From the human T2T-CHM13v2.0 reference genome, Homo sapiens: DNA of 64,000 bases. How positions within the stretch are numbered: position 1 is the stretch's first letter; the number at the start of each line of letters is the position of its first letter. Below the pieces are notes generated by a model. It was given only the letters and a program-made list of their open reading frames with translations, was not told where the DNA came from and searched no databases. Shown piece by piece: positions 4,306 to 7,151 of the stretch. The stretch lies in assembly GCF_009914755.1 (NCBI RefSeq), contig NC_060930.1. One strand, 5' to 3'. Position numbers and translations under genes: made by a program.

Positions 4306-4469
4306 GTCCAGGGACCAAAATGGGATGTATTAAGGAACCAAACGTGTTAAATTTACGAAGGATTGCTATAGCTTTGTTTTGAGGCTTATTTTGACAAAAC
4401 GTTATTCCCTATTTTCTGAATCACACTCCTGTTTTCAAGTACTTGTAGGTATTACATTATTATCTTAAA

Positions 4470-4765
<296 letters not shown>

Positions 4766-5067
4766 TATCTTATTTTTTTTCGTGATCATTAGTAGATTGG
4801 TCAAATATTGAATACCCGTGTGAGGAATCACCTAGGGCTGTGGGGTTATTAAGAAGTACGATGAAAGGCTGTGTGCCAAGGAGCTGGGTCTATTTGGAGT
4901 CAGGATACACATGAGTGAATCAACATGAGATGTGGCCAGGGCAGCACGTGGTGTGTTGCCAGATGGCGGTTGGAGTCTGCAGGTGCTCCTGAGGCAGCAT
5001 GGGGAAGGCGTGCAGGAACGTGCCCTGGTGCAGGCCTTGGTCTGACATTCTCCCGCCTCTGCTCCCC

Positions 5068-6098
5068 TGAAGGGGTGGCCTGCCCCTCCACACTTGTGGG
5101 TATTTCTAGTCGGGTGGGATGAGAGACTGAGAAAAGAAATAAGACACAGAGACAAAGTATAGAGAAACAACAGTGGGCCCAGGGGACCGGCACTCAGCAC
5201 ACCAAGGACCTGCACCGGCATCGGCCTCTGAGTTCCCTCAGTTTTTATTGATTATTATTTTCATTATTTTAGCAAAAAAGGAATGTAGTAGGAGAGCAGG
5301 GTGATGATAAGGAGAAGGTCAACAAAAAACATGTGAGCAAAAGAATCTATATCATAATTAAGTTTAAGGGATGGTACTATGCCTGGACATGCACATAGGC
5401 CAAATTTATGTTTCTCCCCACCCAAACATCTCAGCGGAGTAAAGAATAACAAGGCAGCATTACTGCAAACGTGTCTCGCCTCCCGCCACAGGGCAGCTTT
5501 TCTCCTATCTCAGAGTTGAACAAATGTACAATCGGGTTTTATACCGAGACATTCAGTTCCCAGGGGCAAGCAGGAGAAAGTGGCCTTCCTCCATCTCACC
5601 TGCAAGAGGCTTTCCTCTTTTACTAATCCACCTCAGCACAGACCCTTTACGGGTGTCAGGCTGGGGGACAGTCAGGTCTTTCTCATCCCACGAGGCCATA
5701 TTTCAGACTATCACATGGGGAGAAACCTTGGACAATACCCAGCTTTCCAGGGCAGAGGTCCCTGCGGCCTTCCGCAGTGCATTGTGCCCCTGGTTTATTG
5801 AGACTAGAGAATGGCAATGACTTTTACCGAGTATACTGCTTATAAACATTTTGTTAACAAGGCACGTCCTTCACAGCCCTAGATCCCTTAAACCTTAATT
5901 TTATACAACACATATTTTTGTGAGCTCCAAGTTGGGTCAAAGTGGCTGGGGCAGAGTGGCTGGGGCAAAGCTACAAATTAACAACATCTCAGCAAAGCAA
6001 TTGTTTAAAGTACAGGGCTTTTTCAAAATGGAGTCTCTTATGTCTTCCCTTTCTGCATAGACACAGTGACAGTCTGATCTCTCTCTCTTTTCCCTACA
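5068..6098 (-). mobile_element. HERV-K (HML-2) LTR5 solo LTR, probably LTR5A
   Basis: Minus strand begins TGTAGGGAAAAGAGAGAGAGATCAGACTG and ends ACCCCTTCA; 1031 bp; TATA-like TATAAAA near 5540; 6-bp TSD CTCCCC at 5062-5067 and 6099-6104. Confidence 0.9.
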
Positions 6099-6106
6099 CT
6101 CCCCAG

Positions 6107-6341
6107 CAAACAGCTACCGGACATCCAGCATCATATTTAAGTGTGATGAAGATGAGGACATTGGGAGGCCACAAGTCTTCAGTGAAGTGCGTGGGTGTGA
6201 TGTGACATTTGAGTGGAAAACAAAAGTTGTCTGCCCTCCAAAGAAGTTGGAGTGCAAATTCGTCCAGAAACACAAAACCTACGACCTGCGGCTGCTCTCC
6301 TCTCTCACCGGGTCCTGGTCCCTGGTCCACAACGGAGTCTC
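6107..6341 (+). CDS. IGF2R: IGF2R exon ~40 ([79 protein letters not shown])
   Basis: ccccag| at 6106, TC|gtgagt at 6341; 235 nt; hand translation continues in frame from exon 39. Confidence 0.95.
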
Positions 6342-7151
6342 GTGAGTGCCTTCCCAGTCCACCCGCGGCGCCACACCCTCAGCATGTGAACTTCAGACTG
6401 CTTGACGATGGTTGGCTCTTTTGGGTTCTCAAGATGGGAATACTATGCCCATGTGAGGCTGATGGTGGTTGAGTTGTGACTGTTCCTGGAAGCAGCCCGC
6501 AGTGTCAATCCTGGCACAGAGGGTGGTTCTGAGGTCAGAGTGGGGGCAGGAGCTTTGGTGACTGGAAACGGAGCCTCTGGAGCTGGAAGAACCTGGGCGG
6601 ACTGAGTTAGGCTGGGTTTGATTTGCGTTTGTGTGTAGCTCAGGTTGTGGGAGGCGTGTGGGTTTTCTCGGGTCTTTGGCAGGAGCTCCTTAGGCTTTGC
6701 TGGCTGGGGTCAGCCCATGGTCCTGACCACTCTGCGTGGGGAGCGCCCGCTTGGCCAGGTGCTCCTGCAAGACATCACCGAGGAGCAGGGGCATGGACTC
6801 ACAGGGTTTAAGTGGTTCTAAGTGAGGTGGGAAACTTGCCGAGATTCTAGCCACTGCCTCTCCCAGCCCCGGAGCCCTTCTTTCTACTGTACCACGCTGT
6901 GTCCAGGGTGGCCGCAGGTGTGGACATTCCACTCCGCGTGTGTCTGGTTGGTGAGCTCCCTTCTTCAGTGAAGACTTCTTTTGCCCTTTTTTTTTTTAAT
7001 TGGAAAAGCTATTTTAGTGCTACATTCAGTGATGGAATGGAGCCCTTAGTTATCAGAACCTTTCTCTGAAAGTAAAGTGAAGAGCCCTCCTGTGTCAGGG
7101 CAGAGACGTCACTTGCATGCCTTTTACCTGCCCCTTTGTGTCGTTTTCTAG

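What the first reader, a model, noticed from the sequence alone, without database searches (positions are those of the whole stretch)
5041..6110. A HERV-K LTR inserted inside the IGF2R exon-40 splice acceptor and now appears to supply its branch point and polypyrimidine tract
Seen: the antisense LTR5 (5068-6098) is flanked by the TSD CTCCCC, and the right copy is followed directly by the AG of exon 40. Removing the LTR and one TSD rebuilds TCTGACATTCTCCCGCCTCTGCTCCCC-AG, a textbook acceptor (branch-like ctgAc at 5045 plus pyrimidine tract) that now sits 1 kb from its AG. Only 8 host nt remain between LTR and exon. The reverse complement of the LTR 5' end reads TCTGATCTCTCTCTCTTTTCCCTACA: a ctgAt branch candidate (A6077, 29 nt from the junction) and an AG-free pyrimidine tract. 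Inference: splicing of a constitutive, frame-critical exon depends on retroviral sequence, i.e. an insertion that repaired its own damage.
Basis: partly seen in the sequence, partly recalled or inferred. Interest (0 to 1): 0.9.

Follow-up and report, generated by a model that had tools for sequence, protein, structure and literature searches.

The report
Retroviral LTR supplies IGF2R exon-40 branch site
An ape-specific endogenous-retrovirus LTR landed six bases upstream of an essential exon of the human IGF2R gene, pushed the gene's own splicing signals a kilobase away, and its own end now provides the branch points and most of the pyrimidine tract used to splice that exon.

Summary
Window 5068-6098 is a 1031-bp antisense solo LTR with TG..CA ends, flanked by the 6-bp duplication CTCCCC. 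The right copy abuts the AG of IGF2R exon 40. A published catalogue lists exactly this interval as HML-2 solo LTR "HML2.LTR362", subgroup LTR5A, about 13.7 My old.

Removing the LTR and one duplication rebuilds a good acceptor: ctgAc at -25 and 18 of 20 pyrimidines. That acceptor is now stranded about 1 kb upstream.

Published lariat sequencing (Pineda & Bradley 2018, File S2) places three branchpoints for this acceptor at window A6069, A6071 and A6077, with 3, 8 and 8 reads.

The CTGAT plus AG-free pyrimidine run is a family trait: 28 of 29 and 29 of 29 other copies have them. The LTR therefore arrived carrying a ready-made branch site and tract.

Not tested here: the empty site in other primates, and whether splicing depends on these bases. 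I found no paper linking this LTR to IGF2R splicing. The case is a new variant of TE-derived splice signals.

The parts
5041..5067 (+). Orphaned ancestral acceptor region of exon 40: branch-like ctgAc (A5045, which would be -25 in the empty site) and a pyrimidine tract. It now lies 1,040-1,066 nt upstream of the AG.
   Evidence: Sequence read. The reconstruction follows from the target-site duplication. No AG lies between 5045 and 5067.
5062..5067 (.). Left copy of the target-site duplication CTCCCC
   Evidence: exact 6-bp match to 6099-6104
5068..6098 (-). Solo LTR of HERV-K(HML-2), subgroup LTR5A, antisense to IGF2R, 1031 bp, TG..CA ends. Catalogued as HML2.LTR362.
   Evidence: at least 39 other full-length copies at 92-95% identity. 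(shared termini and duplications). (Subramanian 2011 supplement: chr6 minus strand, hg19 160503942-160504973, 1031 bp, LTR5A, 13.73 My).
5071..5072 (+). First AG of the LTR. It lies 27 nt downstream of the orphaned branch-like A5045, so it is a potential cryptic acceptor (tgaAG|g). Its use would give a stop 17 codons after the junction.
   Evidence: pyrimidine fraction 0.80, yUnAy at -28, A at -3. Usage was not tested.
6069..6077 (+). Mapped lariat branchpoints A6069 (-38, 3 reads), A6071 (-36, 8 reads) and A6077 (-30, 8 reads; ctgAt). All are LTR sequence.
   Evidence: Pineda & Bradley 2018 File S2 rows chr6:160504944, 160504946 and 160504952 on the + strand (score defined). Coordinate offset hg19 = window + 160,498,875.
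6078..6104 (+). Polypyrimidine tract of the present acceptor: 27 nt with 25 pyrimidines and no AG. 21 nt come from the LTR and 6 nt from the host (the right duplication).
   Evidence: (rank 1 of 277 AGs in intron 39 by pyrimidine fraction; 32 nt AG-free).
6099..6104 (.). Right copy of the target-site duplication CTCCCC
6105..6106 (+). Host AG of the exon-40 acceptor
   Evidence: hub annotation (exon starts at 6107)
6107..6341 (+). IGF2R exon 40: 235 nt, entered in codon phase 1, frame-critical
   Evidence: Hub annotation. (the joined CDS of the window is open; skipping the exon gives a stop after 4 codons).

Best explanation
A HERV-K(HML-2) LTR5A element integrated antisense into IGF2R intron 39, in the last six bases (CTCCCC) before the AG of exon 40. 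The published estimate for this copy is about 12-15 My; the subgroup was active about 15-21 Mya. It may have arrived as a provirus that later collapsed to a solo LTR.

The integration moved the exon's own branch site (A5045) and pyrimidine tract 1,037 nt upstream. It left only the duplicated CTCCCC and the AG next to the exon.

Read antisense, the purine-rich 5' end of the LTR's U3 is ...GTGACAGTCTGAT(CT)nTTTTCCCTACA: branch-site motifs followed by an AG-free pyrimidine run. This sequence, joined to the host CTCCCC-AG, now forms the acceptor. U2 snRNP branches at A6069, A6071 or A6077. U2AF most likely binds 6078-6104 and the host AG.

The cassette is present in essentially every copy of the family, so the insertion allele could probably splice exon 40 from the start. 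That would explain how an insertion in such a hazardous position became fixed.

Shown: the insertion anatomy, the family-intrinsic cassette, and branchpoints inside the LTR. Inferred: U2AF binding, immediate splicing competence, and the timing.
For: - Anatomy: exact family termini and a 6-bp duplication abutting the AG.
- Identity and age: HML2.LTR362, LTR5A, 1031 bp, 13.73 My (range 11.97-15.49) in the Subramanian 2011 supplement. That paper gives LTR5A activity as about 15-21 Mya (passages). My own star-tree branch length for this copy is 2.9% over all sites and 2.5% over non-CpG sites, from 27 copies.
- Branchpoints: three rows in Pineda & Bradley 2018 File S2 map to A6069, A6071 and A6077, with 3, 8 and 8 lariat reads carrying a mismatch at the branch.
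- Coordinates: the offset was calibrated on three Mercer branchpoints and two Taggart 3' splice sites. The LTR interval itself matches to the base.
- AG exclusion: the last upstream AG is at 6071-6072, and 276 other AGs were scanned in intron 39 (from 60 nt inside its 5' end), many between the old branch site and the exon. A branch outside the LTR is therefore mechanistically implausible.
- Cassette is a family trait: CTGAT in 28 of 29 other copies, AG-free to the LTR end in 29 of 29, at least 85% pyrimidine in 29 of 29.
- No sign of later adaptation: the only private change in the last 30 nt is C at 6085 where 26 of 26 compared copies have T.
- Acceptor strength: the present acceptor ranks 1 of 277 AGs in the intron by pyrimidine fraction, 0.90.
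Against: - No LTR-less orthologue was seen, so the empty site is a deduction from the duplication.
- Only one of the three branchpoint atlases searched lists branchpoints here. Mercer 2015 DataS2 and the Taggart 2017 files have none for this intron; some of those files were cut when stored.
- Pineda & Bradley align reads only to the last 250 nt of each intron. Their data therefore cannot show or exclude use of the old branch site at 5045.
- The 25 nt upstream of A6077 recur in at least two other LTR copies, L003 and L020. That call would count as their 'moderate' confidence class, whose adenine frequency they report as about 50% against 77% for high confidence.
- A6071 lacks a U at -2.
- File S1, which would name the paired 5' splice site, gave no hit and was probably cut.
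- No mutational evidence for dependence exists.
- With 22 private substitutions in 1031 nt, only 0.64 are expected in 30 nt. Constraint on the LTR end cannot be judged.
Confidence: 0.87

Rival explanations
1. The anatomy is the same, but the insertion did not repair its own damage. The LTR-derived acceptor is poorer than the ancestral one. The allele was mildly deleterious and was fixed by drift. A fraction of transcripts is still mis-spliced, either by exon 40 skipping or by use of the orphaned branch site and tract with the LTR's first AG at 5071-5072, and those transcripts are removed by nonsense-mediated decay.
For: The orphaned signals followed by an AG form a plausible acceptor: pyrimidine fraction 0.80, yUnAy at -28, 37 nt AG-free. 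Both aberrant products meet early stops. TEs are strongly depleted close to splice acceptors, and TEs near exons are more often found in chimeric ESTs (passages of Zhang et al. 2011).
Against: By the crude measures used, the present tract (0.90 pyrimidine, yUnAy at -30) is as good as the rebuilt ancestral one (18 of 20 pyrimidine, yUnAy at -25). The cryptic site has A at -3 and would define a 1,269-nt exon. The hub annotation lists no exon in the LTR. No RNA data were available either way.
Confidence: 0.2
2. The published branchpoint calls are artefacts of the repetitive LTR sequence (mis-mapping or template switching). The real branch site has not been mapped.
For: The 25-mer upstream of A6077 is not unique. 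Two other atlases list nothing for this intron. The read counts are low (3, 8 and 8).
Against: The method requires the other half of each read to match one 5' splice site exactly, in the same gene, with an inverted alignment and a mismatch at the branch. All three calls fall on adenines at -30 to -38. The 25-mers upstream of A6069 and A6071 occur in none of the 29 other copies examined. Even if the calls were wrong, the AG-exclusion logic still places the branch inside the LTR, because only 8 host nt remain.
Confidence: 0.06
3. The flanking CTCCCC repeat is a coincidence of pyrimidine-rich DNA. The LTR did not split the acceptor, and the left flank at 5041-5067 was never the exon 40 acceptor.
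For: Both flanks are C/T-rich, which raises the chance of a 6-mer match. 6 of 29 other copies show no exact duplication.
Against: The match sits exactly at the family-defined termini. 23 of 29 other copies carry an exact 5- or 6-bp duplication at the same boundaries. The left flank happens to carry a consensus branch motif 22 nt upstream of the junction, an AG-free stretch and 18 of 20 pyrimidines. Only about 8 of the 277 AGs scanned in the intron reach a pyrimidine fraction of 0.80 or more.
Confidence: 0.03

Closest known systems
Antisense Alu exonization (poly-U tract plus AG of an antisense Alu becomes a 3' splice site). Recalled from the field; no paper on it was read here.
   Same: A retroelement read antisense offers a pyrimidine tract that the spliceosome adopts as part of an acceptor.
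   Different: In that case the TE creates a new, usually alternative exon, supplies the AG, and enters the mRNA. Here the exon and the AG are ancient host sequence, no TE base is in the mRNA, and the TE replaces the branch site and tract of a constitutive exon.
Transposed elements that introduce or eliminate branch points (Kralovicova et al. 2021, OGDH intron 4a; passages seen)
   Same: TE insertions near a 3' splice site can bring new, usable branch points at the typical 19-37 nt distance.
   Different: That work used engineered MIR insertions in reporters, competing with distant branch points of an alternative exon pair. This case is a natural, fixed retroviral LTR serving a constitutive exon.
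Hazardous zones for intronic TEs (Zhang, Romanish & Mager 2011; passages seen), and the report that antisense HML-2 takes part in no mRNA splicing events (van de Lagemaat et al. 2006; abstract and passages seen)
   Same: The same class of element (an intronic LTR, antisense) and the same question: what lets a TE survive next to an exon.
   Different: Those surveys show depletion and silence. For example, only 1 of 6 full-length mouse LTR elements within 20 bp of an exon lies near an acceptor. This copy sits 8 nt from a constitutive acceptor and takes part in splicing. A splice-site-based screen would miss it because the AG is host sequence.
Plant transposons spliced out as introns through signals in their termini (maize Ds/dSpm in wx, bz, adh1). 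Recalled; not read here.
   Same: An insertion carries splice signals that limit the damage it causes.
   Different: Those elements are removed, imperfectly, from exons and give leaky mutant alleles. Here the element stays intronic and the allele is the fixed wild type.

Membership tests
HERV-K(HML-2) solo LTR, subgroup LTR5A | LTR termini TG...CA shared with other family copies | tested here: met
   28 of 29 other copies begin with TG (L009 begins CG) and 26 of 29 end exactly in CCCTACA.
HERV-K(HML-2) solo LTR, subgroup LTR5A | 5-6 bp target-site duplication directly flanking the LTR, with no internal proviral sequence next to it (solo status) | tested here: met
   CTCCCC lies on both sides. 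The flanks are IGF2R intron and exon sequence.
HERV-K(HML-2) solo LTR, subgroup LTR5A | Length about 1 kb and high identity to many other genomic copies | tested here: met
   39 other full-length matches at 92-95% identity, from 1477 first-look candidates. The paper gives an LTR5A canonical length of about 1004 bp.
HERV-K(HML-2) solo LTR, subgroup LTR5A | Assignment to LTR5A by the subgroup-specific insertion and RepeatMasker/Repbase similarity | not tested
   I did not test the diagnostic insertion. The label is taken from the Subramanian 2011 supplement row HML2.LTR362, whose interval matches to the base.
Functional 3' splice-site region (branch site and polypyrimidine tract) | Branch nucleotide mapped by lariat reads at a typical distance from the AG | tested here: met
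   Published data looked up: A6069, A6071 and A6077 at -38, -36 and -30. One dataset of the three searched.
Functional 3' splice-site region (branch site and polypyrimidine tract) | yUnAy-type motif, a pyrimidine tract, and an AG-exclusion zone between branch and AG | tested here: met
   ctgAt at -30; 25 of 27 pyrimidines; 32 nt AG-free.
Functional 3' splice-site region (branch site and polypyrimidine tract) | Loss of exon inclusion when the element is mutated | not testable with these tools
   Needs a minigene or genome editing.
TE exonization | TE-derived bases are part of the mature mRNA | tested here: not met
   The LTR ends at 6098 and the exon starts at 6107. The hub annotation lists no exon of any transcript within 5068-6098.

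The most novel reading that the evidence does not exclude
The antisense end of HML-2 LTR5 elements is a portable, pre-formed branch-site and pyrimidine-tract cassette that lacks only an AG. In apes, inclusion of a frame-critical exon of IGF2R depends entirely on it. An essential housekeeping and tumour-suppressor receptor is therefore coupled to whatever acts on HML-2 LTRs: KRAB-ZNF/TRIM28 heterochromatin, DNA methylation, and LTR-driven antisense transcription. This could give ape-specific, LTR-state-dependent modulation of IGF2R output through exon 40 skipping or the 5073 cryptic acceptor followed by nonsense-mediated decay. Other antisense LTR5 copies may act as latent acceptors in the same way.
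Probability: 0.15. Interest if true: 0.8.

Novelty: new variant of a known kind. Interest (0 to 1): 0.62.

Why it matters
This is a natural experiment in splice-signal replacement. An exon that presumably used its own branch site and tract throughout mammalian history has used retroviral ones in the human lineage for roughly 12-20 My.

It shows concretely how a TE can survive in the most strongly depleted intronic position: by bringing equivalent signals with it.

It also gives a counter-example to the reported splicing silence of antisense HML-2.

It marks 6069-6104 as LTR bases where human variants could cause IGF2R exon 40 mis-splicing. Variant filters that discount repeats would overlook them.

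The prediction about the empty site in gibbons or monkeys can be tested in minutes with public genomes.

Tried and rejected
1. From memory I suspected the element was not LTR5 but another HML family. The Subramanian 2011 supplement lists the exact interval as LTR5A, so that doubt is withdrawn.

2. I first thought the family might make 5-bp duplications, with the sixth base matching by chance. The 5-bp and 6-bp tests exclude each other at a given site, and the IGF2R copy passes only the 6-bp test.

3. Constraint or adaptation in the last 30 nt of the LTR cannot be judged. There is 1 private substitution against 0.64 expected.

4. Mercer 2015 DataS2 and the Taggart 2017 files list no branchpoint for intron 39. 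The BPHunter supplements held here are small and gave no hit. Pineda & Bradley File S1, which holds the 5' splice site pairing, gave no hit and was probably cut when stored.

6. Literature searches for IGF2R with LTR, splice acceptor and intron, with HERV-K or LTR family names, with LTR5, and with 'exon 40' returned nothing about this insertion. Subscription journals are not covered.

7. No primate or other mammalian genome is available through the tools, so the orthologue test was not possible.

Full report
**What is in the sequence**

Reading 4900-6400 shows a block that begins TGAAGGGG at 5068 and ends CCCTACA at 6098, 1031 bp long. CTCCCC lies immediately before it (5062-5067) and immediately after it (6099-6104). 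AG follows at 6105-6106, and the annotated start of IGF2R exon 40 is at 6107. Only eight host bases separate the block from the exon.

Exon 40 is the fourth of the twelve exons (37-48) in the window. It is 235 nt long and is entered in codon phase 1. The joined coding parts of the window read open to the annotated stop. Leaving exon 40 out gives a stop four codons after the junction.

**Is the block a real LTR insertion with a real target-site duplication?**

A search of the window's own assembly returned 39 other full-length matches at 92-95% identity, out of 1477 first-look candidates; only 40 were scored. I fetched 29 of them with flanks.

- 28 of 29 begin with TG (L009 begins CG), and all 29 share the following bases GAAGG.
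- 26 of 29 end exactly in CCCTACA. L020 and L026 each differ by one base there, and L018's end is aberrant.
- 23 of 29 are flanked by an exact duplication at precisely these boundaries: 15 of 5 bp and 8 of 6 bp. Four of the 6-bp rows (L011, L019, L022, L023) are segmental-duplication copies of one insertion. Six of 29 show no exact duplication.

The IGF2R copy passes the 6-bp test and not the 5-bp test, so CTCCCC is a genuine 6-bp duplication.

**Which LTR is it?**

The doubt was wrong. The additional file of Subramanian et al. 2011 (PMC3228705; supplement searched, passages of the main text) has this row: HML2.LTR362, chromosome 6, minus strand, hg19 160503942-160504973, 1031 bp, LTR5A, age 13.73 My (range 11.97-15.49). 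With the offset derived below, this is window 5068-6098 to the base.

The paper's text gives LTR5A activity as about 15-21 Mya and LTR5A proviruses as about 20.1 ± 5.4 Mya.

My own estimate used no consensus. It was a star-tree branch length from pairwise distances among 27 copies (the 30 fetched minus three segmental duplicates). The result is 2.9% over all sites and 2.5% over non-CpG sites. That sample is biased towards the nearest relatives of this copy.

By general knowledge of primate divergence, these figures fit an insertion in the ape lineage after the split from Old World monkeys. This is an inference. No primate genome could be consulted.

**The empty site**

Retroviral integration duplicates the target. 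Deleting 5068-6098 and one CTCCCC therefore gives the pre-insertion allele: ...TCTGACATTCTCCCGCCTCTGCTCCCC-AG|CAAACAG. In that allele:

- ctgAc (A5045) is a perfect yUnAy at -25.
- No AG lies between it and the acceptor.
- 18 of the 20 bases before the AG are pyrimidines.

By the same crude measure, only about 8 of the 277 AGs scanned in intron 39 reach a pyrimidine fraction of 0.80 or more. The left flank looks like the ancestral acceptor, which now lies 1,037 nt further from its AG.

**Where is the branch now?**

I calibrated hg19 = window + 160,498,875 in four ways.

- Three Mercer 2015 branchpoints fall on adenines at -26, -28 and -25 of exons 41, 43 and 44.
- Two 3' splice-site coordinates printed in the Taggart 2017 tables match exons 41 and 43.
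- The LTR interval in the Subramanian supplement matches.

Pineda & Bradley 2018 (PMC5959240) File S2 is a BED file of branchpoints of moderate or high confidence. [quoted passage not shown] It holds exactly three rows with the prefix 1605049:

| hg19 position (chr6, +) | Score | Window position | Distance from exon 40 |
|---|---|---|---|
| 160504944 | 3 | A6069 | -38 |
| 160504946 | 8 | A6071 | -36 |
| 160504952 | 8 | A6077 | -30 |

All three positions are adenines and all lie inside the LTR.

Caveats on these branchpoints:

- Their pipeline aligns reads only to the last 250 nt of each intron. It cannot report on the old site at 5045.
- The 25 nt upstream of A6077 recur in at least two other copies, L003 and L020. 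That call is probably of their moderate class.
- A6071 has no U at -2.
- File S2 was cut when stored, and File S1 (the 5' splice-site pairs) gave no hit.
- Mercer DataS2 and the Taggart files list nothing for this intron.

Independent of any atlas, the last AG upstream of the acceptor is at 6071-6072, and only eight host bases remain next to the exon. A branch outside the LTR would have to act across about 1 kb containing many AGs.

**Did the LTR bring the signals, or were they acquired later?**

Among the 29 other copies:

- 28 have CTGAT at the homologous place (L009 has TTGAT).
- 29 are AG-free from that adenine to the LTR end.
- 29 are at least 85% pyrimidine there.

Compared with 26 independent copies, the IGF2R copy has 22 private substitutions and one private single-base indel. 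In the last 30 nt there is one: C at 6085 where 26 of 26 have T, a pyrimidine-for-pyrimidine change. One more lies at 6055. With 0.64 expected in 30 nt, this says nothing about constraint. It does show that no adaptive remodelling was needed.

The cassette is the antisense reading of the purine-rich start of U3. The present tract (6078-6104) has 25 of 27 pyrimidines and is 21 nt LTR plus 6 nt host. By pyrimidine fraction the present acceptor ranks 1 of 277 AGs in the intron.

**Mechanism proposed**

Integration split the acceptor between its tract and its AG. The LTR end then substituted for the branch site and most of the tract. The host AG and the exon were untouched. The allele was competent for exon 40 splicing at once and could drift to fixation.

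- Shown: the anatomy, the family-intrinsic cassette, and the mapped branchpoints.
- Inferred: U2AF binding to 6078-6106, immediate competence, whether the insertion began as a provirus, and the date.

**A by-product**

The orphaned branch motif and tract are now followed by the LTR's first AG at 5071-5072 (tgaAG|g; pyrimidine fraction 0.80, yUnAy at -28, 37 nt AG-free). Its use would add 1,034 nt to exon 40 and meet a stop 17 codons after the junction. Whether it is used is unknown. This is the core of the main rival reading, that the allele is slightly leaky rather than fully repaired.

**Comparison with what is known**

- TEs are strongly depleted near splice acceptors. Mutagenic insertions cluster there (Zhang et al. 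2011, passages).
[quoted passage not shown] 2006, abstract and passages). Their screen looked at splice sites inside internal parts of full-length ERVs, so it could not have seen this case.
- TE insertions can supply usable branch points. This has been shown with engineered MIR insertions and is discussed for disease-causing cryptic exons (Kralovicova et al. 2021, passages).
- Antisense Alu exonization and plant transposons that are spliced out are conceptual neighbours. I recall these and did not read them here.

The present case differs from all of these. A fixed retroviral LTR replaces the branch site and tract of an ancient constitutive coding exon, and contributes no base to the mRNA.

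Four searches returned no paper that connects this LTR with IGF2R splicing: IGF2R with LTR, splice acceptor and intron; with HERV-K or LTR family names; with LTR5; and with 'exon 40'. Subscription journals and unreadable supplements may hold more. The two ingredients, the LTR catalogue row and the branchpoint rows, are each public. The connection between them appears to be new.

**Verdict**

I class it as a new variant of a known kind (TE-derived splice signals), with interest of about 0.6.

Noticed in passing
window 5041-5073: The stranded ancestral branch motif and pyrimidine tract are followed by the LTR's first AG (5071-5072). This makes a plausible cryptic acceptor. Its use would extend exon 40 by 1,034 nt and give a stop 17 codons after the junction.
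   Followed up: partly
L011 (C12:8.23 Mb), L019 (C8:12.69 Mb), L022 (C8:12.16 Mb), L023 (C8:7.56 Mb): Four LTR5A copies share the same flanks (..tgattttccaag|LTR|tccaag..). They are one insertion copied by segmental duplication between chromosomes 8p and 12p. I counted them once in the divergence statistics.
   Followed up: partly
L002-L030 flanks: This HML-2 subgroup shows both 5-bp duplications (15 copies) and 6-bp duplications (8 copies, 5 of them independent insertions) at identical LTR boundaries. 6 of 29 have no exact duplication.
   Followed up: partly
window 7126, 11236, 12048: Published branchpoints (Mercer 2015, Taggart 2017, Pineda & Bradley 2018) for IGF2R introns 40, 42 and 43 fall on adenines at -26, -28 and -25. 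I used them to calibrate the hg19 offset. A further Mercer point, hg19 160525677, does not fit the same offset, which implies an indel between hg19 and this assembly downstream of about 12.1 kb.
   Followed up: partly
window 4457-4782: This masked repeat in intron 39 carries the motif ..CCACCTCGGCCTCCCAG.., which I recall as typical of an Alu. It ranks among the more pyrimidine-rich AG contexts of the intron (AG at 4727, 0.80).
   Followed up: no
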